A stretch of 64,000 nucleotides of DNA, from NCBI GenBank assembly GCA_030390025.1, contig JASTWF010000109.1, positions 682,001 through 746,000 on the forward strand, in the 5' to 3' direction. This document shows, in pieces, positions 3,001 through 29,760 of the stretch. The translations under genes were made by a program, and so were the position numbers. The DNA is from Squalus acanthias (Eukaryota). The notes beneath the pieces are model-generated. The model made no database searches and was not told the origin of the DNA. It saw only the letters and a list, made by a program, of their open reading frames with translations. Numbering within the stretch: position 1 is the first letter of the stretch; each line of letters opens with the position of its first letter.

Positions 3001-3085
3001 TCTGCCTTCCACGCTGACTAGTTTTTTCCTACATATTTGGCTGTCCATCAAACCCTACTTTAGCTCCACTCCGTATCCATTCCAC
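78..3085 (-). mobile_element. Degenerate CR1-clade LINE (APE endonuclease + RT remnants), 5'-truncated
   Basis: Broken ORFs with WEFDIVAITETWL, GNYRPVS, YMDFSKAFDKVPH, SGVPQGSVLG and KFADD; 3' tail of (actctatg)-type repeats at ~78-103. Confidence 0.92.
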
Positions 3086-3640
3086 TACTCTGTATCTGAC
3101 CAGTGCTGTACCTGCCCTGGGAGTGTTTGATGGGACAGTGTAGAATTAGTATTAGTCTGTATCTGACCACAGTTGTTCCTTCCCTGGGAAAGTTTAATGG
3201 GAAAGTACAGGGGCAGCTTTACTCTGTATCAAAACCGTGCTGTACCTGCCCTTGGAGTGTTTGTTGGGAGAGTGTAGAGGGAGCTTTACTCTGTATCTAA
3301 CCCGTGCTGTACCTGTCCTGGGAGTGTTTGATGAGACAGTGTAGAGGGAAGTTTTCTCTGTATCTCACCCATGCTGTACCTGCCCTGGGACTGTTTGATG
3401 GGAGAGTGTAGAGGGAGATTTACTCTGTATCTGACCGGTGCTGTACCTTCCCTGGGACTGTTTGATGGGTAAGTATCGAGGGAGCTTTACGCTGCATGAC
3501 ACTCGTTGTGCATCTGGACTGGGAGTGTTTGATGGGGAGTGAAGAGGGATCTTTACTCTGTATCTACCCAGTGCTGAACCTGCCGTGGCAGTGTTAGATG
3601 GGGATAGCAAAGGGAAATTTACTCTGCCATGTACTGCACT
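3086..3640 (-). repeat. 67-bp satellite array
   Basis: About 8 diverged copies of the reverse complement of cccatcaaacactcccagggcaggtacagcacgggttagatacagagtaaagctccctctacactgt. Confidence 0.9.
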
Positions 3641-4592: not shown

Positions 4593-4601
4593 TCACTTGA
4601 C
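4593..4601 (-). CDS. IGHM: IgM TM2 exon (V-K-stop)
   Basis: Polypyrimidine tract ttctatccctcttttaaag|GTC AAG TGA, giving the canonical KVK cytoplasmic tail. Confidence 0.9.
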   Translation of the reverse strand, partial: VK

Positions 4602-4741: not shown

Positions 4742-4869
4742 CTTCACCAGAGTGACGGCAGCGCTGTAGAAAATGCTCAGGAAGAACAGGATGATGAATG
4801 TGGAAGCGGTTGTCCAGATGTTGCCGCTCTCGTTCTCATAGTCTTCAATCCAGATGTGGTCTGAGGAAT
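4742..4869 (-). CDS. IGHM: IgM TM1 exon
   Basis: ccccgtag| (D)SSDHIWIEDYENESGNIWTTASTFIILFFLSIFYSAAVTLVK |gtgaga; acidic spacer plus conserved antigen-receptor TM motif; phase-1 acceptor. Confidence 0.95.
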
Positions 4870-5559: not shown

Positions 5560-8500
5560 GATTGTGTGATAATGTGTGTTTATCTGTAAGTGTGTATGTG
5601 TTGAAGTGCAAGAGTCTGTGTGCGTTATTTTTGAAAGTGTGTGTGTTTATGTGTAATTCAATGTAAGTGTGTTCATGTGTAATTGTGCGTCTATTTTTGT
5701 AAGTTTGTTTATATTTATGTTAACGTATGGGTGTGCATTTGTGTAAATGTGATCATGTGTAAATGTATCTGTAAGTGAGTGCATGTGTGTCTTTATGTGT
5801 AAGTGTTTGTGAAAAGTTTAGTTTAAACGTGTGTGTGTTTATGTGTAATTATGTGATCTGTTGCATGTGAGTGTGTGTGCTGATGTGAGTGTCAATGCGG
5901 ATGTTTGTATGTGTTTTGTGTAAGGGTGTGTGTGTGGTGTGTGTGTTAATGAGGGTGTCTGTGTGTGTTGGGTGTAAGGGTGTGTGTGTGTTTATGTGTG
6001 TGTTAATGCGGGTGTCTGTGTGTGTGTGTGTAAGAGTGTGTGTGTGGTGTGTGTGTTAATGAGGGTGTCTGTGTGTGTTGGGTGTAAGGGTGTGTGTGTG
6101 TTTATGTGTGTGTTAATGCGGGTGTTCGTGTGTGTTGTGTGTAAGAGTGTGTGTGTGGTGTGTGTGTTAATGAAGGTGTCTGTGTGTTTTGTATGTAAGG
6201 GTGTGTGTGCGTTTATGTGTGTGTTGATGCGGGTGTCGGTGTGCAAGGATGTGTGTGTGTTGATGTGTGTGTTAATGCGGGTGTCTGTGTGTGTTGTGTG
6301 CAAGAGTGTGTGTGTGGTGTGTGTGTTAATGAAGGTGTCTGTGTGTGTTGTGTGTAAGGGTGTGTGTGCGTTTATGTGTGTGTTAATGCGGGTGTCGGTG
6401 TGTAAGTGTGTGTGTGTGTTGATGTGTGTGTTAATGCGGGTGTATGTATGGTTTGTGTGTAAGAGTGTGTGTGTGTTGATGTGTGTGTTAATGCGGGTGT
6501 CTGTGTGTGCTGTGTGTAAGGGTGTGTGTGTGTTGATGTGTGTGTTAATGCGGGTGTCTGTGTGTGTTGTGTGTAAGGGTGTGTGTGTGTTGATGTTTGT
6601 GTTAATGCGGGTGTCTGTGTGTGTTTTGTGTAAGGGTGTGTGTGTGTTGATGTGTGTGTTAATGCGGGTGTCTGTGTGTGTTGTGTGTAAGGGTGAGTGT
6701 GTGTTGATGTGTGTGTTAATACGGGTGGCTGTGTGTGTTGTGTGTAAGGGTGTGTGTGTGTTGATGTGTGTGTTAATGTTGGTGTCTGTGTATATTTTGT
6801 GTAAGGGTGAGTGTCTGTTGATATGTGTGTTAATGCGGGTGTCTGTGTGTGTTGTGTGTAAGGGTGTGTGTGTCTTGATCTGTGTGTTCATGCGGGTGTC
6901 TGTGTGTGTTGTGTGTAAGTGTGTGTTTGTTTTGATGAGTGTGTTGATGCCGGTGTCTGTGTGTGTTGTGTAAGGGTGTGTGTGTGTTGATGTGTGTGTT
7001 AATGCGGGTGTCTGTGTGTGTTTTGTTTAAGGGTGTGTGTGTGTTGATGTGTATGATAATGCGGGTGTCTGTGTGTGTTGTGTGTAAGGGTGTGTGTGTG
7101 TGTTGATGTGTGTGTTAATGTGAGTGTCTGTGTAAATTTTGTGTAAGGGTGTGTGTGTGTGTTGATATTTGTGTTAATGCGGGTGTCTGTGTGTGTGTTG
7201 TGTTTAAGGGTGTGTTTGTGTTGTTGTGTGTGTTAATGCGGGTGTCTGTGTGTGTTTTGTGTAAGGGTGTGTGTGTGTTGATGTGTGTGTTAATGCGGGT
7301 GTCTGTGTGTGTTGTGTGTTAGGATGTGTGTGTGTTGATCTTTCTATTAATGCGGGTGTCTGTGTGTGTTGTGTGTAAGCTTGTGTTTGTGTTGTGTGTG
7401 TTAATGCGGGTGTCTGTGTGTGTTTTGTGTAAGGGTGTGTGTTTGGGTTGATGTGTGTGTTAATGCGGGTGTCTGTGTGTGTTTTGTGTAAGGGTGTCTG
7501 TGTGTTGATGTGTGTGTTAATGCGGGTGTCTGTGTGTGTTTTGTGTAAGGGTGTCTGTGTGTTGATGTGTGTGTTAATGCGGGTGTCTGTGTGTGTTTTG
7601 TGTAAGGGTGTGTGTGTGTTGATGTGTGTATAAATGCGGGTGTCTCTGTGTGTAGTGTGTAAGGGTGCGTGTGTGTTGATGTTTGTGTTAATGCCGGTGT
7701 CTCAGTGTGTTGTGTGTAAGGGTGTGTGTGTGTTATGATGTGTGTGTTAATGCGGGTGTCTGTGTGTGTTGTGTGTAAGAGTGTGTGTGTGGTGTGTGTG
7801 TTAATGAAGGTGTCTGTGTGTGTTGTGTGTAAGGGTGAGTGTGCGTTTATGTGTGTGTTAATGCGGGTGTATGTGTGTAAGGGTGTGTGTGTGTTGATGT
7901 GTGTGTTAATGCGGGTGTCTGTGTGTGTTGTGTGTAAGAGTGTGTGTGTGGTGTGTTTGTTAATGCGGGTGTCTGTGTTTTTTGTGTTTAAGGGTGTGTG
8001 TGCGTTTATGTGTGTGTTAATGCGGGTGTCGGTGTGTAAGGATGTGTGTGTGTGTTGATGTGTGTGTTAATGCGGGGGTCTGTGTGTGTTGTGTGTAAGA
8101 GTGTGTGTGTGGTGTGTGTGTTAATGAAGGTGTCTGTGTGTGTTGTGTGTAAGATTGAGCGTGCGTTTATGTGTGTGTTAATGCGGGTGTCGGTGTGTAA
8201 GGGTGTGTGTGTGTTGATGTGTGTGTTAATGCGCGTGTCTGTGTGTGTTATGTGTAAGACTGTGTTTGTGGTTTGTTTGTTAATGCGGGTGTCTGTGTGT
8301 GTTTTTTCTAAGGGTGTGTGTGTGTTGATGAGTTTGTGTTAATGCTGGTGTCTGTGTGTGTTTTGTTTAAGGGTGTGTGTGTTGTTGTGTGTGTTAATGC
8401 GGGTGACTGTGTGTGCTGTTTGTAAGGGTGTGTGTGTTATGATGTGTTTGTTAATGCGGGTGTTTGTGTGTTGTGTGTAAGGGTGTGTGTGTGTTGATGT

Positions 8501-11500
8501 GTGTGTTAATGCTGGTGTCTGTGTATGTTGTGTGTAAGGGTGAGTGTGTGTTGATGTGTGTGTTAATGCGGGTGTCTGTTTGTGTTGTGTGTAAGGGTGT
8601 GTGTGTGTTGATGTGTGTGTTAATGCGGGTGTCTGTGTCTGTTGTGTAAGTGTGTGTGTTGATGTGTGAGTTAATGCGGGTGTCTGTGTATATTGTGTGT
8701 AAGGGTGTGCGGGTGTTGATATTTGTGTTAATGCGGGTGTCTGTGTATATTTTGTGTAAGGGTGTGCGTGTGTTGATATTTGTGTTAATGCGGGTGTCTG
8801 TGTATATTTTGTGTAAGGGTGTGTGTGTTGATGTGTTTGTTAATGCGGGTGTCTGTATGTGTTTTGTGTGCAAGGGTGTGTTTGTTTTGTTGTGTGTGTC
8901 AATGCGGGTGTCTGTGTGTTGTGTGCAAGGGTGTGTTTGTTTTGTTGTGTGTGTCAATGCGGGTGTCTGTGTGTGTTTTGTGTAAGGGTGTGTGTGTTGA
9001 TGTGTCTGTTAATGCGGGTGTCTGTGTGTGTTGTGTTTAAGGGTGTATGTGTTTCGATGTGTGTGTTAATGCGGGTGTCTTTGTGTGTTTTGTGTAAGGG
9101 TGTGTTTGTGTTGTTGTGTGTGTTAATGCGGGTGTCTGTGTGTGTTGTGTGTAAGGTTGTGTGTGTGTTGATGTGTGTGTTAATGCGGGTGTCTGTGTGT
9201 GTTTTGTTTAAGGTTGTCTTGTTTGTTGTGTGTGTTGATGCGGGTGTCTGTGTGTGTTGTGTGTGTAAGGGTGTGTGTGTTGCTGTGTGTGTTAATGCGG
9301 GTGTCTGTGTGTGTTTTGTGTAAGGGTGTGTGTGTGTTGATGTGTGTGTTAATGCGGGTGTCTGTGTGTATTGTGTGTAAGGGTGTGTGTGTTGATGTGT
9401 GTGTTAATGCGGGTGTCTGTGTGTGTTTTGTGTAAGGGTGTGTGTGTGTTGATGTGTGTGTTAATGCGGGTGTCTGTGTGTGTTGTGTTTAAGGGTGTGT
9501 GTGTGTTGATGTGTGTATAAATGCGGGTATCTGTGTGTGTTGTGTGTAAGGGTGTGTGTGTGTTGATGTGTGTGTTAATGCGGGTGTCTGTGTGTGTTTT
9601 GTGTAAGGGTGTGTGTGTTGATGTGTGTGTTAATGCGGGTGTCTGTGTTTGCTTTGTGTAAGGTGTGTGTGTGTGATGTGTGTGTGTTAATGCGTGTGTC
9701 TGCGTGTGTTTTGTGTAAGGTGTGTGCTGATGTGTGTGTTAATGCGGGTGTCTGGGTGTGTTGTGTTTAAAGGTGTGTGTGTGTTGTTGCGCGTGTTAAT
9801 GCGGGTGTCTGTGTGTTTTGTGTGTAAGGGTGTGTGTGTGTTGATGTGTGTGTTAATGCGGGTGTCTGTGTGTGTTTTGTGTAAGGGTGTGTGTGTGTTG
9901 ATGTGTGTGTTAATGCGGGTGTCTGTGTGTTGTGTGTAGGGGTGTGCATGTTGTGTGTGTTAATGCGGGTGTCTGTGTGTGTTGTGTGTAAGCGCATGTC
10001 TGTGTTGATGTCTTTGTTAATGCGGGTGTCTGTGTGTGTTGTGGGTAAGGGTGTGTCTGTGATGATGTGTTTGTTTATGCGGGTGTCTGTGTGTGTTGTG
10101 TGCAAGGGTGTGTGTGTGTGTTGCTGTGTGTGTTAATGCGTGTTTCTGTGTAGGTTATGTGTATGGGTGTGTCTGTGATGATGTGATTGTTTATGCGGGT
10201 GTCTGTGTGTGTTGTGTGTAAGGGTGTGTGTGTGTTGTATGCGTTAATGCGGGTGTTTGTGTGTGTTTGTTTAAGAATGTGTGTATGTTAATGTCTGTGT
10301 AAATCGAGTGTATTTGTGTGTTTTGTGTAAGGGTGTGTGTGTGTTGATATGTGTGTTAATGCGGGTGTTTGTGTGTGATTTGTTTAAAGGTGTTTGCGTT
10401 GATTTGCGTGTTAATGAGGGTGTCTGTGTGTGTTTTTTGTAAGGGTGTGTGTGTGTTGTGTGTCTTAATGTGGGTGTCTGTGTGTGTTTTGTGTAAGGTT
10501 GTGTGTGTGTCTTGATGTGTGTGTTAATGCGGGTGTCTGTGTGTGTTGTGTGTAAGGGTGTGTGTGTGTTGATGTGTGTGTTAATGCGGGTGTCTGTGTG
10601 CTTTTGTTTAAGAATGTGTGTATGATAAGGTCTGTGTTAATGCGGGTGTCTGTGTATATTTTGTGTAAGTGTGTGAGTGTGTTGATGTGTGTGTTAATGC
10701 GAGTGTCTGTGTGTTCTGTGTAAGTGTGTGTGTGTGTGTTGATGTGTGTGTTAATGCGGGTGTCTGTGTGTGTTGTGTATAAGGGTGTGTGTGTGTTGAT
10801 GTGTGTGTTAATGCGTGTGTCTGTGTGTGTTGTGTGTAAGAGTGTGTGTGTGTTGATGTGTGTGTTAATGCGGTTGTCTGTGTGTGTTTTGTGTAAGGGT
10901 GTGTGTGTGTTGATGTGTGTGTTAATGCGGGTGTCTGTGTGTGTTGTGTGTAAGGGTGTGTGTTTGTTTTGATGTGTGTGTTATTGCGGGTGTCTGTGTG
11001 TGTTTTGTGTGTAAGGATGTGTTTGTGTTGATTTGTGTGTTAATGCGGGTGACTGTGTGTGTTTTGTGTAAGGGTGTGTGTTTGTTGATGTGTGTGTTAA
11101 TGCGGGTGTCTGTGTGTGTTTTGTGTGTAAGGGTGTGTGTGTGTTGATTTGTGTGTTAATGCGGGTGTCTGTGTGTGTTTTGTGTAAGGGTGTGTGTGTG
11201 TTGATGTGTGTGTTAATGCGGGTGTCTGTGTGTGTTGTGTGTAAGGGTGTGTGTGTGTTGATGTGTTTGTTAATGCGAATGTCTGTGTTTGTTTTGTGTG
11301 TAAGGGTGTATGTGTGTTGTGTGTGTTAATGCGGGTGTATGTGTGTGTTGTGTGTAAGGGTGTGTGTGTGTTGATGTGTTTGTTAATGCGAGTGTCTGTG
11401 TGTGTTTTGTGTGTAAGGGTGTGTGTTGATGTGTGTGTTAATGCGGGTGTCTGTGTGTGTTTTGTGTAGGGGTGTGTGTGTGTGTTGATGTGTGTGTTAA

Positions 11501-13240
11501 TGCGGGTGTGTGTGTGTGTTTTGTTAAGGGTGTGTGTGTGTTGATGTGTGTGTTAATGCGGGTGTCTGTGTGTGTTGTGTGTAAGGGTGTGTGTGTGTTG
11601 ATGTGTGTGTTAATGCGGGTGCCTGCTGTTTTTTGTAAGGGTGTGTGTGTGTTGTGTGTCTTAATGAGGGTGTCTGTGTGTGTTTTGTGTAAGGTTGTGT
11701 GTGTGTCTTGATGTGTGTGTTAATGCGGGTGTCTGTGTGTGTTGTGTGTAAGGGTGTGTGTGTTGATGTGTGTGTTAATGCGGGTGTCTGTGTGTGTTGT
11801 GTGTAAGGTTGTGTGTGTGTCTTGATGTGTGTGTTAATGCGGGTGTCTGTGTGTGTTTTGTGTAAGGGTGTGTGTGTGCTGATGTGTGTGTTAATGCGGG
11901 TGTCTGTGTGTGTTGTGTGTAAGGGTGTGTGTGTGTTGATGTGTTTGTTAATGCGAATGTCTGTGTTTGTTTTGTGTGTAAGGGTGTATGTGTGTTGTGT
12001 GTGTTAATGCGGGTGTATGTGTGTGTTGTGTGTAAGGGTGTGTGTGTGTTGATGTGTTTGTTAATGCGAGTGTCTGTGTGTGTTTTGTGTGTAAGGGTGT
12101 GTGTTGATGTGTGTGTTAATGCGGGTGTCTGTGTGTGTTTTGTGTAGGGGTGTGTGTGTGTGTTGATGTGTGTGTTAATGCGGGTGTGTGTGTGTGTTTT
12201 GTTAAGGGTGTGTGTGTGTTGATGTGTGTGTTAATGCGGGTGTCTGTGTGTGTTGTGTGTAAGGGTGTGTGTGTGTGTTGATGTGTGTGTTAATGCGGGT
12301 GCTGCTGTGTTTTGTGTAAGGGTGTGTGTGTGTTGTGTGTCTTAATGAGGGTGTCTGTGTGTGTTTTGTGTAAGGTTGTGTGTGTGTCTGATGTGTGTGT
12401 TAATGCGGGTGTCTGTGTGTGTTGTGTGTAAGGGTGTGTGTGTTGATGTGTGTGTTAATGCGGGTGTCTGTGTGTGTTGTGTGTAAGGTGTGTGTGTGTC
12501 TTGATGTGTGTGTTAATGCGGGTGTCTGTGTGTGTTTTGTGTAAGGGTGTGTGTGTGCTGATGTGTGTGTTAATGCGGGTGTCTGTGTGTGTTTTGTGTA
12601 AGGGTGTGTGTGTGTATGTTAAGGTCTGTGTTAATGCGCGTGTCTTTGTCTATTTTGTGTAAGGGTGTGTGTTTGTTGATGTGTGTGTTAATGCGAGTGT
12701 TTGTGTGTGTTTTGTGTAAGGATGTGTGTGTGTTGATGTGTGTATTAATGCGTGTGTCTGTGTGTGTTGTGTCTAAGGGTGTGTGTGTGTTGATGTGTGT
12801 GTTAATGCGGGTGTCTGTGTGTGTTTTGTGTAAGGGTGTGTGTGTGTTGAAGTGTGTTTTAATTGTGTTTATGTTTGTGTTATATGTATGTTTGTGTGTG
12901 TTGATGTGTGTTTTAATGCGGGTGACTCTGTGAGTTTTGTGTTAGTGAATGTTTGTAAATATATGTGTTATTGCGGGTGTCTTTTCTGTAAGTGTGTGTG
13001 TTTCGATTTTTGTGTTTATGCTGGTGTATTTGTGTGTGTGTTAAAGCAGGTGACTGTGTGTGGTTTATGTAAGCGTGTCTGTGTTGATGTGCGTTTTTGT
13101 GCGGGTTTCTATGTGTGTGTGTTAGGCAGGTGTCTGTGTGTATGTTAATGCGGGTGTCTGTGTGTCTTTTCTGTTAGTGTGTGTTTGTCTCAATTTGTGT
13201 GTTTATGCTGGTGTCTGTGTGTGTTTATGTGTAAGTGTGC
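5560..13240. repeat. ~57-bp TG-rich (sense strand CA-rich) minisatellite, ~7.6 kb
   Basis: Unit taatgcgggtgtctgtgtgtgttgtgtgtaagggtgtgtgtgtgttgatgtgtgtgt repeated over 100 times, degenerate at both ends. Confidence 0.97.
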
Positions 13241-14386: not shown

Positions 14387-14392
14387 TTTATT
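14387..14392 (-). terminator. PolyA signal of secretory form (copy b)
   Basis: AATAAA ~40 nt after the CH4b tailpiece stop. Confidence 0.85.
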
Positions 14393-14430
14393 GTTATTTA
14401 TTTAAGAACTGAAATTCAATCGAGAGTTTC

Positions 14431-14822
14431 TCATTGACAAGAATTGACGGAGTCCATCAGTACAAGGGAAATGTTCAGAAAACTTGCTTTACCGCTGGAT
14501 TTATTGACCGTTCTGGTGATGATCTTCAAGGGGATTGCTTCATGTCCCACCACACAGGAGTAAGAAGCGCCGCTGGCCCACTCCTCCGCTGCAATGGATA
14601 ACAGGCTGTAGATGAAGAAGGAACTGCTGCCGTTCTCCGCCATCACCTCGGTGTTCCTGTAGTTGCTGGAATTCACCGGCTTGTCATTGACGGTCCACTT
14701 GACGAAGATCTCTCGGGGGGAGAAACCTCTCCCAAAGCAGGTGAGGGTGACGGATCTCTGAGCGGAGATTTCTTCTGCAGAGGGCAGGAGGACAGACACG
14801 AACGGTTGCCGCTGATTTTTAG
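14431..14822 (-). CDS. IGHM: IgM CH4 copy b + canonical secretory tailpiece
   Basis: tcctgcag| (A)[17 protein letters not shown]...[42 protein letters not shown]-stop; internal donor G|GTAAAG at 14493/14492; tail has N-I-S sequon and penultimate Cys. Confidence 0.96.
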
Positions 14823-15302: not shown

Positions 15303-15611
15303 CTGTTTCCTTGTGGATGGAAGCTCTTACAGCAGTCGGCATATCCTGATGGCTCACCACGCAGGTGAACTCATCCCCACTCAGCCAGGCTTGTGTCGAA
15401 ATGTCTATGTTGCTGATCACGCTGTTGGGATCCTCTCCGGGTTGAAGGGCAATCTCTGATTTCACAGTCTCCTTTCCTCGGCTCCAGGTCACGGTGACTC
15501 CATAAGGAGCATTAGACAAGACGCAGGTTAAGGTCACCGTTGTCTCCAGTAAGACCTGTTCTAGTGACGGCTGACGAAGAGTAATCACTGGATCGCTGCT
15601 TGTGATAGGAT
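15303..15611 (-). CDS. IGHM: IgM CH3 copy b
   Basis: tttcacag| (D)[30 protein letters not shown]...W...[23 protein letters not shown]|gtgag; 309 nt, phase 1/1, C1-set Cys/Trp/Cys intact. Confidence 0.95.
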
Positions 15612-16505: not shown

Positions 16506-17635
16506 TGTGAGATACGGTGGTATAACAAATGCCCTTTTCCCTTTCTCTGGTGGGTGAGTGGAGGTACAGTGGTATAACAAATGCCCTTTCCCCTCTCTCT
16601 GCTGGGTGAGTGAAGATACGGTGCGTTAACAACTGTAATTTCGCTATCAATTGTCGGGTAGTGTGGTACAGTGGGTTAACAACTGTCCTTTCCCTATCAA
16701 TGGCGGGTGCGTGGAGATACAGTGGGTTAACAATGGTCATTCCCCCCCCCCCCTCTGCTGGGAGAGTGAAGATACGTTGAGCTAACAATTGTCGTTTCAC
16801 TATCAATGGTGGCGGAGTGGGGTACAGTGTGTTAACAACTGCCCTTTCCCTTTCTATAGTGAGGAAGTGGGGGTACACTGGGTTAACAACTGCCCTTTCC
16901 TATCAATGGTGAGGGAGTGGGGGTACAGTGGATTAACAATCGCCCTTTCCTATCAATGCTGGAGGTGTGGGGGCACAGTGTGCTAACAAATGCCCTTTCC
17001 CTATCAATGGTGTGAGAGTGGGGGTACAGTGGGTTATTATTTGCCCTTTTTCTATCAATGCTGGGGGTGTGGGGGCACAGTGTGCTAACAATTGCCCTTT
17101 CCCTATCAATGGTGGGAGAGTGGGTGTAGAGTGGGTTATTTTTTGCCCTTTTCCTATCAATGTTGGGGGACTGGGGGCACATTGTGCTAAGACACGCCCT
17201 TTCCCTATCAATGGTGGGGGAATGGGGGTACAGTGGGTTAATAAATGCCCATTCCCTATCAAAGCTGGCGGAGTGGGTGTAAAGTAGGTTAATATTTGCC
17301 CTTTCGCTATCTATGTTGAGGGAGTTGCGGCTCAGTGGGTTAACAACTTCCCTTTCCCTTCATGCTGGTGCGGCAGTGAGAGGTACAGTGTGTTAACAAT
17401 TGCCATTTCAACTCTCTCTGGTGCGGCAGTGAGGATACAGTGTGTTAACAATTGCCCTTCTCTCTCTCTCCGTTGAGGCAGTGGTGATACAGGAGTTAAC
17501 AATTGCCCTTTCCCCTCTCTCTGGTGCGGCAGTGAGGATACAGTGTGTTAACAGTTGTCATTTCCAATCTCTCTGGTGAGGGAGTGGTGATACAGGAGTT
17601 AGCAATTGCCCTTCCCCCTCTATCTGGTGGGGGTA
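16506..17635. repeat. 50-52-bp minisatellite downstream of CH4a (same family as 13535-14280)
   Basis: Core ggtacagtgggttaacaattgccctttccc with a tatcaatgg variant sub-array. Confidence 0.9.
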
Positions 17636-17975: not shown

Positions 17976-18269
17976 GATTAACAGGGAGACCGAGATCTAA
18001 ATGTGCTGCGTTTGTTTGTCGGAAATGGGAATTTTAAGATTCCCCCAGCGGGATGAAAGTTGAAGTTACTTTGAGGAATCGTGTTATGAGAGAGCTTCAC
18101 TCTGTCTCTAACTCGTGGTGAATCTGAGCTGGGAGCGCTGGCTGTACAAACCATGGACCCAAGACCCACAAACACCCAACTTCAGATACACAGCCCGCCC
18201 CTGGGCAACAATGGGACACGAAATTATTTGAGCTGCTGTGTTTTTAACTCCGGATTCGAAGAAAAGCCC

Positions 18270-18275
18270 TTTATT
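18270..18275 (-). terminator. PolyA signal of secretory form (copy a)
   Basis: AATAAA at the position equivalent to 14387-14392. Confidence 0.8.
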
Positions 18276-18357
18276 GATATTTATTTAAGAACTGAAATGC
18301 AATCGATATTTTCTCATTGACAAGAATTGACGGAGTCCATCAGTACAAGGGAAATGT

Positions 18358-18704
18358 TCACAAACATTGTTTACCCATGGATTTATTGACCGTTCTGGTG
18401 ATGATCTTCAAGGGGATCGCTTCATGTCCCACCACACAGGAGTAAGAAGCGCCGCTGGCCCACTCCTCCGCTGCAATGGATAACAGGCTGTAGATGAAGA
18501 AGGAACTGCTGCCGTTCTCCGCCATCACCTCGGTGTTCTTGTAGTTGCTGGAATTCACCGGCTTGTCATTGACGGTCCACTTGACGAAGATCTCTCGGGG
18601 GGAGAATCCTCTCCCTAAGCAGGTGAGGGTGACGGATCTCTGAGCGGAAATTTCTTCTGCCGAGGGCAGGAGGACAGACACGGACGGTGGCCGCGGATGT
18701 TGAG
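18358..18704 (-). CDS. IGHM: IgM CH4 copy a with frameshifted short tail (GKQCL-stop)
   Basis: tcctgcag| (A)[17 protein letters not shown]...TVNKSM; internal donor G|GTAAAC at 18375/18374; tail is 1 nt shorter than copy b, giving TGA at 18358-18360; the remainder of the old tailpiece follows out of frame to 18314. Confidence 0.93.
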
Positions 18705-19182: not shown

Positions 19183-19488
19183 CTGTTTCCTTGTGGATGG
19201 AAGCTCTTTCAGCAGTCGCCATATCCTGATGGCTCACCACGCAGGAGAACTCATCCCCACTCAGCCAGGCTTGTGTCGAGATTTTTAGGTTGCTGATCAC
19301 ACTGTTGGGATCCTCCCCGGGTTGAACAATCTCTGATTTCATAGTCTCCTTTCCTCGGGTCCAGGTCACGGTGACTCCATGAGGAACATTGGAAACGACG
19401 CAGGTTAAGTCTAGAGTCGCCTCCATTAAGACCTGTTCTAGTGACGGTTCGCGAAGAGTAATCATTGATTCGCTGCGTGAGGAACGAT
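19183..19488 (-). CDS. IGHM: IgM CH3 copy a
   Basis: tttcacag| (D)[30 protein letters not shown]...[23 protein letters not shown]|gtgag; 306 nt, open, phase 1/1. Confidence 0.95.
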
Positions 19489-20985: not shown

Positions 20986-21294
20986 CCTGAGAGCTGGAGA
21001 TGTCTTTGCTTTGGGTAACCCCTTCATGAGTGACCTGGCAAGTGTAGACCGAGCCGGTGAACCATTCGCCGGCGGGGACTTTCAGCAGACTGGTCGCCGA
21101 GAAGGTCCCGTTCACTTCACAGACGGGAGAGGTGACGAAGCCCGAATGCATGAGTTGTCCGTTCTTCAGCCAATTAACAGTCAGTGACTCTGGACGGAAA
21201 TCCATGATTGAACACACGACGGTTGCATATCTGCTGCTGGTGATTTGGTCCCTGGAACTCACCGTGAGGATAACAGTTGGATGGACGGATTCAT
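20986..21294 (-). CDS. IGHM: IgM CH2 exon
   Basis: ccctag| (D)[13 protein letters not shown]...[22 protein letters not shown]...[21 protein letters not shown]|gtaag; 309 nt. Confidence 0.96.
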
Positions 21295-22129: not shown

Positions 22130-22426
22130 CTGGCATTGGGATGCTCCATTCCGAATCACTTCGTCGAACCACGCAGTAGATTGTGCTGCTCCCCACCTCT
22201 GACGCGGTGATGGTTAACTGGCTGCTCAGGGTGTAGGTTCCCATCTTGTTGAGCACTGACGGGTAAGTCATCAATCCAGTGGTGATCGGCACTTTATCTT
22301 TCGTCCAGGAAACGCTGGTGATTTCGGGGTTATAGTCCATCGCCAAACAGCCGAAATTGACGGAGCCGTCGGTGTGGGGTTGTTCACAGGAGAGCAGCGC
22401 GTAGAGGGTGGGAGCAGACGGTGTCG
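22130..22426 (-). CDS. IGHM: IgM CH1 exon
   Basis: ctttctcag| (A)[31 protein letters not shown]...[17 protein letters not shown]|gttag; closely resembles shark Cmu1; N-terminal Cys available for light-chain bond. Confidence 0.96.
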
Positions 22427-28280: not shown

Positions 28281-28330
28281 CTGCAGTCACCGACACCATG
28301 GTCCCTTGTCCCCAGTCGCTGAGATAGTAT
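28281..28330 (-). CDS. IGHJ: JH segment with D2-like start (apparent germline D2-J join)
   Basis: ATACTATCTCAGCGAC TGG GGA CAA GGG ACC ATG GTG TCG GTG ACT GCA G|gtaag = YYLSDWGQGTMVSVTA; WGxG motif and phase-1 donor. Confidence 0.92.
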
Positions 28331-28707: not shown

Positions 28708-28722
28708 ACCCCACTGTAGTAC
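28708..28722 (-). CDS. IGHD: DH1 segment
   Basis: GTACTACAGTGGGGT between two heptamers; typical shark IgM D1. Confidence 0.93.
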
Positions 28723-29281: not shown

Positions 29282-29589
29282 GTCTGTTGCACAGTAATAG
29301 ATGGCGGTGTCTTCGGGCTTCAGGGTCTTCATGTCCAACGCGAAGATGTTGTTTGAAATGTCTTTGGACGCAGTAAATCGGTCTTCAATCCCGGGGGCGT
29401 AATTGTTGCTGGATGAACTGTAATAGCTAACCAGCCACTCCAGCCCCTGTCCGGGAACCTGTCGGACCCAGCTCATGTAGCTGTATTCAAGATTGAACCC
29501 GCTGGTTTTACAGGTCAGTCTCAGGGAGCCTCCGGGATTCCCGTTCTCTGCCTTGGGCTGAGTCAACACTATGTCATCCGACTGGACAC
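29282..29589 (-). CDS. IGHV: VH exon (shark IgM-type), unrearranged, open
   Basis: ttttacag| (G)[63 protein letters not shown]. Confidence 0.97.
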
Positions 29590-29714: not shown

Positions 29715-29760
29715 CGGATAAGAAAGCCAGCAACAGACTGAGATAAATCGCCGACCTCAT
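29715..29760 (-). CDS. IGHV: Leader (signal peptide) exon
   Basis: ATG..MRSAIYLSLLLAFLS G|gtgag; 46 nt; 125-nt intron to V. Confidence 0.95.

What the first reader, a model, noticed from the sequence alone, without database searches (positions are those of the whole stretch)
18314..18375. First secretory tailpiece cut by a 1-nt deletion to GKQCL-stop, still with a penultimate Cys
Seen: copy a reads GGTAAACAATGTTTGTGAAC versus copy b GGTAAAGCAAGTTTTCTGAAC. The shift removes the ~20-aa tailpiece with its N-I-S glycan and hydrophobic strand, yet creates a new Cys one residue before the stop, and the AATAAA at 18270 is intact. Established: the IgM tailpiece drives polymerisation and J-chain incorporation, and sharks have both monomeric (7S) and pentameric (19S) IgM. 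Inference: polyA choice could give a short non-polymerising chain (copy a) or a long polymer-competent chain (copy b), a genetically encoded monomer/polymer switch. Alternatively the tail simply decayed once CH4a became an internal exon.
Basis: partly seen in the sequence, partly recalled or inferred. Interest (0 to 1): 0.78.

Follow-up and report, generated by a model that had tools for sequence, protein, structure and literature searches.

The report
Six-domain shark IgM, first tail clipped
In four neighbouring shark IgM antibody genes the last two constant exons are duplicated and the first secretion tail is cut short by an inherited one-base loss; one RNA contig shows splicing on into the second copy, and the gene likely also leaks a short tailless chain that would stay monomeric, probably by accident rather than as the cause of sharks' monomer and pentamer antibodies.

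Summary
The frameshift is real and inherited: 13 IgM CH4 copies in this genome carry it (43 have a full tail), and contigs of two DNA runs span it without a gap. The window holds one of four linked clusters with C1-C2-C3a-C4a[GKQCL, poly(A)-a]-C3b-C4b[full tail, poly(A)-b]-TM. One RNA contig splices C4a to C3b, pointing to a six-constant-domain IgM, which I did not find in print. The other 9 carriers have a single CH4 and are all defective, so the cut tail looks like a loss-of-function allele tolerated because module b supplies a tail. The Cys is not held in place (GKQC*, GEQCL*, read-through variants). Poly(A)-a is intact, has the geometry of a normal secretory site and is as invariant among the four copies as tail b, so a short tailless chain is likely made, but its use is not shown. 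It cannot be the general 7S/19S mechanism: few clusters have it and the literature ties shark monomer IgM to J-chain expression. Whether the deletion or the duplication came first is unresolved.

The parts
29715..29760 (-). IgM leader exon
   Evidence: ATG and CCG|GT donor read
29282..29589 (-). VH exon, open, followed by an RSS (unjoined)
28708..28722 (-). D segment between two heptamers
28281..28330 (-). J (apparently D-J joined in this cluster), donor intact
22130..22426 (-). CH1 exon, 297 nt, AG/GT, no stop
20986..21294 (-). CH2 exon, 309 nt, AG/GT, no stop
19183..19488 (-). CH3a exon, 306 nt
18375..18704 (-). CH4a exon, 330 nt, ending in an exon-internal donor TGG|GT (AGC>ATG change specific to the four a copies)
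   Evidence: RNA contig of X7 leaves the exon at 18375 into CH3b
18358..18375 (-). Short tail ORF GKQCL-stop, made by the 1-nt loss
18314..18357 (-). Out-of-frame relic of the tailpiece, identical to copy b in this window
18270..18285 (-). Two AATAAA hexamers of poly(A)-a (18285-18280, 18275-18270)
16506..17633 (.). 51/52-bp minisatellite ending unit a; duplication junction at about 16506
15303..15611 (-). CH3b exon, 309 nt
14493..14822 (-). CH4b exon, 330 nt, donor GCG|GT
14431..14493 (-). Full secretory tailpiece b, 20 aa with NIS and penultimate Cys
   Evidence: aligns to the human mu tailpiece in PDB chains
14387..14402 (-). Two AATAAA hexamers of poly(A)-b
5593..13239 (.). 57-bp satellite that lengthens the CH4b-TM intron to 9.6 kb
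4742..4869 (-). TM1 exon
4593..4601 (-). TM2 exon (VK-stop)

Best explanation
The frameshift is an inherited cut in the first tailpiece of an IgM gene with duplicated CH3-CH4 exons; it is likely a loss-of-function accident that four clusters tolerate because CH4a is spliced on to a second module with a full tail, while the untouched first poly(A) site likely still leaks a short tailless chain that would stay monomeric. Steps: (1) shown: duplication, deletion, open frames and AG/GT sites in 3 of 4 clusters; (2) shown by one contig of one run: C4a-to-C3b splice; the six-domain protein itself is inferred; (3) inferred from mammalian mu regulation: the weak CH4a donor competes with poly(A)-a as in any IgM, so high 3'-processing activity gives a 4-domain chain ending GKQCL and lower activity gives 6-domain secreted or membrane chains; (4) inferred: without the tail strand and NIS glycan the short chain cannot build the tailpiece core or take J chain; its Cys lies two residues past the K of GK and may close a bond between the two heavy chains of one monomer, or cause ER retention; (5) inferred: the Cys is a by-product of the new frame.
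For: 13 deletion-type against 43 full tails; short-read support. All 9 single-CH4 carriers are defective: 6 with stops in CH3 or CH4, 2 with a stop in a germline-joined V, 1 with a GT>GG J donor (no V or no upstream exons found for five of them), against 1 of 16 full-tail loci with a CH3/CH4 stop. All 4 clusters with an open V and C1-C4a carry module b. X7 loose end at 18375 equals the first 30 nt of CH3b. Five changes in the 18-nt short ORF among 13 carriers: 1 silent, 2 missense, 1 stop lost, 1 earlier stop. The a-specific AGC>ATG change improves predicted U1 pairing from -5.5 to -6.5 kcal/mol (U1 motif recalled). CH4a is under purifying selection among a copies (Sd/Nd 5/0, 3/1, 3/2, 6/2). 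Poly(A)-a geometry matches a canonical site.
Against: The 9 defective carriers are about three lineages, not 9 independent events, and the 16 controls were top BLAST hits, so the link between tail loss and decay is weak statistically. Tail a plus 85 nt downstream varies at only 4 of 196 sites among a copies (b: 9 of 194; introns 12-13%), which fits selection on poly(A)-a as well as gene conversion. One cluster (C130 150k) has a frameshift in CH3b while its a module and TM are open, so module b is not always kept. The splice rests on one contig in one run whose RNA label is a guess; the amount is unknown. Use of poly(A)-a is not shown: X7 record 17 (18302-18371, no gap, 3 mismatches) matches no assembly copy exactly and lies at lower depth (33) than intron-containing contigs (126).
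Confidence: 0.5

Rival explanations
1. Poly(A)-a is effectively silent: the cut tail is a dead relic inside an intron and the gene makes only six-domain chains.
For: C4a-to-C3b splice seen; donor change that favours U1 pairing fixed in 4 of 4 a copies and absent from the other 21 modules aligned; a-only changes just downstream of the hexamer; no unambiguous RNA ending at poly(A)-a.
Against: Both hexamers intact in 4 of 4 a copies; region as invariant as tail b; intron length like a canonical secretory site; the donor is still weak (-6.5 against -10 to -11 for constitutive donors of the gene); a tail-a-like RNA contig exists.
Confidence: 0.24
2. A selected two-output gene: poly(A)-a gives an IgG/IgY-like, Cys-capped monomer and splicing gives a longer J-chain-competent polymer with the same V region.
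For: Low variation over tail a and poly(A)-a (Fisher P=0.003 against a introns; linked sites inflate this); tail b intact in 4 of 4; IgG and IgY chains end at the homologous GK; an engineered Cys at the Fc C-terminus forms an inter-chain bond (PMC5766897 passage); the 150k cluster keeps only the short and a-to-TM forms open.
Against: CH4 is homogenised family-wide even in pseudogenes (dS 0.014-0.09 against canonical or a copies), so low variation may be conversion; GKQC* in 1 of 4 a copies; no single-CH4 carrier stayed intact; no expression or protein evidence; J-chain control already gives sharks monomers.
Confidence: 0.2
3. This arrangement is the genetic basis of shark 7S versus 19S IgM in general.
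For: Only the logical fit to tailpiece biology (PMC7709107 passages).
Against: 4 clusters against at least 39 other full-tail copies; none of 39 homologous proteins from other cartilaginous fishes ends in GKQCL; reviews state both forms come from the same loci and depend on J-chain expression.
Confidence: 0.03
4. Sequencing or assembly error (a T-run shortened by one base).
For: The gap can be placed in a T run.
Against: 13 copies on 5 contigs, always with the same two linked substitutions; short-read contigs of two runs lack the base.
Confidence: 0.01

Closest known systems
Canonical elasmobranch IgM cluster (four C-mu domains, secretory tail GKPSFVNISLxLMDTxNSCQ)
   Same: V-D-J cluster, CH1-CH4 homology, exon-internal CH4 donor, tailpiece b, TM1/TM2
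   Different: Second CH3-CH4 pair, two secretory poly(A) sites, first tail cut to five residues; reviews give four C domains as typical
Shark IgW and IgNAR, and UrIg2 (two-exon duplications; IgW secreted forms of 2, 4, 6 or 8 C domains by RNA processing)
   Same: Lengthening by duplication of two adjacent C exons, homogenisation by gene conversion, several secreted lengths from one gene (PMC12227049 passages; PMC4279169 passages)
   Different: Here the duplicated pair is the terminal CH3-CH4 with tail and poly(A) site, in IgM, recent (introns 11-13% apart), and the short form ends in a frameshifted stub rather than its own tail
IgG / IgY / IgE secreted termini ending at GK; engineered Fc with C-terminal GEC
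   Same: Chain stops at or just after the GK at the CH4 donor; IgG chains align up to that GK; a Cys there can link the two chains (PMC5766897 passage)
   Different: Separate isotypes reached by class switching; here only a predicted alternative product of an IgM gene, untested
Mammalian mu secretory/membrane poly(A)-versus-splice competition
   Same: Weak exon-internal donor followed by a secretory poly(A) site (PMC2874999 passages)
   Different: The unit occurs twice in series, giving up to three outcomes; the regulation is assumed, not shown, for sharks
IgM1gj of nurse shark
   Same: IgM subclass with altered C-domain number that forms monomers and dimers
   Different: IgM1gj lacks CH2, is fully germline-joined and keeps a full tail (P0014)

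Membership tests
Elasmobranch IgM heavy chain | C domains homologous to shark C-mu 1-4 | tested here: met
   CH4a 79-87% identical to named shark IgM chains; CH3b 69% to Heterodontus IgM
Elasmobranch IgM heavy chain | Cluster layout V-D-J-C with IgM-type TM exons | tested here: met
Canonical four-domain IgM | Exactly four C exons and one secretory tail | tested here: not met
   six C exons and two tail regions in 4 of 4 C130 clusters
Polymerising mu tailpiece (tail a) | About 18-20 residues with N-x-S/T and hydrophobic strand | tested here: not met
   GKQCL-stop
Polymerising mu tailpiece (tail a) | Conserved penultimate Cys | tested here: inconclusive
   penultimate in 11 of 13 carriers, last in 1, read through in 1; not homologous in position to the tailpiece Cys
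Polymerising mu tailpiece (tail b) | Length, sequon, strand and penultimate Cys | tested here: met
   aligns end to end with the human mu tailpiece; intact in 4 of 4 b copies
Polymerising mu tailpiece (tail b) | Assembles with J chain into polymers | not testable with these tools
   needs expression and sizing
Regulated alternative-poly(A) switch | Proximal site is cleaved and polyadenylated in vivo | tested here: inconclusive
   signals intact; one ambiguous contig; contigs cannot show ends
Regulated alternative-poly(A) switch | Competing splice is used | tested here: met
   one X7 contig joins 18375 to the start of CH3b
Regulated alternative-poly(A) switch | Ratio changes with cell state | not testable with these tools
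   no raw reads or sorted cells available

The most novel reading that the evidence does not exclude
A shark IgM subclass in which one rearranged gene has two secretory poly(A) sites in series and makes either an IgG-like four-domain monomer closed by a new C-terminal Cys or a six-domain J-chain polymer: a change of antibody valency and Fc by RNA processing alone, without class switching.
Probability: 0.2. Interest if true: 0.75.

Novelty: new variant of a known kind. Interest (0 to 1): 0.47.

Why it matters
The solid novelty is a four-gene IgM subfamily with six constant exons, RNA-supported splicing across the junction and two secretory poly(A) regions; my searches found no description of it. 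It is a young, natural replay of the two-exon duplications that produced IgW and IgNAR, and of the tail loss at GK that marks IgG/IgY. If poly(A)-a is used in a regulated way, it would show that monomer or polymer can be chosen in cis by RNA processing, and one 3'-end sequencing run plus one expression experiment would test it. It does not solve the general 7S/19S question.

Tried and rejected
Assembly error: rejected. My first reading that the deletion must predate the duplication: withdrawn as unproven after the tree test (a+b 97/94, but a+single-CH4 not rejected, p-AU 0.18; 4 of 25 rows left out: C826 and L014 for poor CH3 alignment, two near-identical rows). Site patterns: 11 sites group a with b, 3 group b with singles, 2 (the motif itself) group a with singles. 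Idea that the deletion and the TG/GT swap are one quasi-palindrome template switch (the allele has a perfect 6-bp inverted repeat around TGTG): kept only as a weak lead, since the hairpin is no better than shuffles (z -0.48). No RNA holder was listed as such; X7 and X8 are guessed RNA, though spliced junctions in them fit RNA. RNA cover stops near 18260 in X7 and X8, but both are one study and canonical transcripts cross-map, so it was not used. The X8 loose end at 18375 maps to an unrelated place on contig C12 without a fitting acceptor: treated as a chimera. A finer look at RNA over the tail was not obtained, so use of poly(A)-a stays open. No structure or complex prediction was run: a CH4 dimer would pass by likeness to solved Fc and say nothing on the Cys. 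Protein searches were shallow (124, 10, 70 candidates); I read the C-termini of all 39 hits and the whole of 11. Paper searches showed no shark IgM with duplicated CH3-CH4 or a cut tail; subscription papers are not covered. Smith et al. 2012 (cluster preference for monomer or pentamer; recalled), Pasalic et al. 2017 and Castro et al. 2013 were not held. No supplements were read; IgM sequence figures in them could bear on novelty.

Full report
Observation. The window holds a shark IgM heavy-chain cluster on the minus strand: leader, V, D, J, CH1, CH2, CH3a, CH4a, CH3b, CH4b, TM1, TM2. All six C exons have AG/GT ends, lengths divisible by three and no stop. CH4a read through its donor gives MGKQCL-stop; CH4b gives the full 20-residue tail, which aligns end to end with the human mu tailpiece. 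Against b the site differs by one missing base and three substitutions, plus AGC>ATG just upstream.

Is it real? A pattern census found 13 deletion-type and 43 full-tail CH4 ends (lower bounds). Contigs of DNA runs X1 and X5 cross the site without gaps and with 1-3 mismatches; by ungapped comparison with 25 modules only deletion-type copies come that close, intact ones differ at 18-27 places. The deletion is germline.

Who carries it? Four carriers are CH4a exons of four clusters on contig C130, each followed by CH3b-CH4b with a full tail. Three have open short, long and membrane forms; one (150k) has a 1-nt insertion in CH3b that kills the long forms; one (543k) ends GKQC-stop. The other nine have a single CH4 and all are defective: four on C29 (stop in CH3; no V and no CH2 hit in the stretches fetched), one on C3 (stops throughout), one on C826 (stop in CH4, no upstream exon found), two on C988 with a stop in a germline-joined V, and one on C988 with a GT>GG J donor and a read-through tail. 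Of 16 full-tail loci checked, 1 has a stop in CH3 or CH4, against 6 of these 9. The nine are about three lineages and the controls were best hits, so this is suggestive only. In the 18-nt short ORF the 13 carriers show one silent change, two missense, one lost stop and one earlier stop: no sign that a penultimate Cys is being held.

History. The duplicated unit runs from the CH2-CH3 intron to a minisatellite of the CH4-TM intron, with the junction near 16506. Modules a, b and the single-CH4 carriers form one family apart from canonical clusters (100/100); a and b are sisters (97/94), but grouping a with the singles is not rejected (p-AU 0.18, 21 of 25 rows). So either the tail was lost first and module b restored secretion, or the tail broke after CH4a became internal and the singles are collapse or conversion products. 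CH4 is homogenised across the family, pseudogenes included, which blurs the order.

Expression. In one search (4 of 20 listed runs laid) one contig of X7 leaves CH4 at 18375 and continues with the first 30 nt of CH3b, an in-frame splice possible only in the duplicated clusters. X7 and X8 also hold intron-containing contigs that match the 276k a module at both diagnostic sites. One X7 contig covers 18302-18371 without a gap and with 3 mismatches; it is nearest to a-type tails but equals no assembly copy and is shallower than the intron contigs, so it does not show use of poly(A)-a.

Evidence that poly(A)-a still matters. Both hexamers are intact in all four a copies. The C4a-C3b introns are 2763-3388 nt, like the 3288-nt CH4-TM intron of a canonical cluster, while CH4b-TM is 9.6-14.6 kb. 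Tail a to the hexamer varies at 3 of 111 sites among four copies, tail b at 3 of 110, introns at 12-13%; in four C29 pseudogenes the tail is not more conserved than the intron (5 of 104 against 12 of 463). Conversion tracts can give the same picture. Against it: the a-specific donor change improves predicted U1 pairing by 1 kcal/mol (U1 motif recalled).

Mechanism. In mammals the secretory mu poly(A) site competes with the membrane form and wins when CstF-64/ELL2 activity rises (PMC2874999, passages). Here that unit occurs twice, so by inference the gene can yield a 6-domain membrane chain, a 6-domain secreted chain with tail b, and a 4-domain chain ending GKQCL. The tailpiece strands and penultimate Cys build the polymer core and bind J chain (PMC7709107, passages), and an unpaired tail Cys causes ER retention (PMC11161108, passages). 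The short chain lacks strand and sequon. Its Cys lies two residues past the GK where IgG and IgY chains end, and a Cys engineered at that end of IgG links the two chains (PMC5766897, passage). The short chain would therefore be either a covalently closed monomer or retained; this is untested.

Comparison. Reviews describe shark IgM as typically four-domain, with 7S and 19S made from the same loci and pentamers depending on J chain (PMC4279169 and PMC5192425, passages; PMC10801876, passages). Two-exon duplication with gene conversion is known for IgW, IgNAR and UrIg2, and IgW has secreted forms of several lengths (PMC12227049, passages). Searches showed no six-domain or tail-cut shark IgM, and none of 39 homologous proteins ends in GKQCL; three key papers were not held.

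Verdict. Observation confirmed; interpretation partly supported. Best reading (0.5): an accidental tail loss tolerated in a six-domain IgM subfamily, with a likely short by-product. Silent relic 0.24; selected local switch 0.2; general 7S/19S basis 0.03; error 0.01. New variant of a known kind; interest 0.47.

Noticed in passing
G000:C130, clusters near 150k, 276k, 543k and the window (L041-L046, L064-L069, L072): Four tandem IgM clusters with six C exons, unjoined open V genes and one D; the larger finding behind this one. TM1 protein is identical in all four.
   Followed up: yes
G000:C130:146752-147058: CH3b of the 150k cluster is 310 nt (frameshift), and its CH4b has more replacement than silent changes, while V, C1-C4a and TM are open: a possible natural loss of the long form. 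Not checked in reads.
   Followed up: partly
   Followed up: partly
window 5593-13239: A 57-bp GT-rich satellite of 7.6-12 kb fills the CH4b-TM intron in all four C130 clusters and is short or absent in the other clusters examined; it may favour poly(A)-b over the membrane splice.
   Followed up: partly
G000:C988:405556-405874: Germline-joined VDJ whose V is only 44% identical to the window's V, on an otherwise open IgM constant region with a mutated J donor.
   Followed up: no
protein P0020: A bamboo shark gene model ends ...SSGKPSL, possibly an independent cut of the IgM tail at the same place; may be a gene-model end.
   Followed up: no
window 18353-18368: The deletion allele forms a perfect 6-bp inverted repeat around TGTG, imperfect in intact tails; one template-switch event could explain the deletion and both substitutions, but the hairpin is not stronger than shuffles.
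   Followed up: partly
CH4 exons across clusters: Silent divergence in CH4 (1-9%) is lower than in CH3 (8-16%) and introns even between pseudogenes and canonical clusters, suggesting exon-focused gene conversion among shark IgM clusters.
   Followed up: partly
window 23900-61340: Large arrays of a 67-bp satellite upstream of the cluster, with one inverted block at 3080-3630, plus LINE-like fragments; not examined.
   Followed up: no
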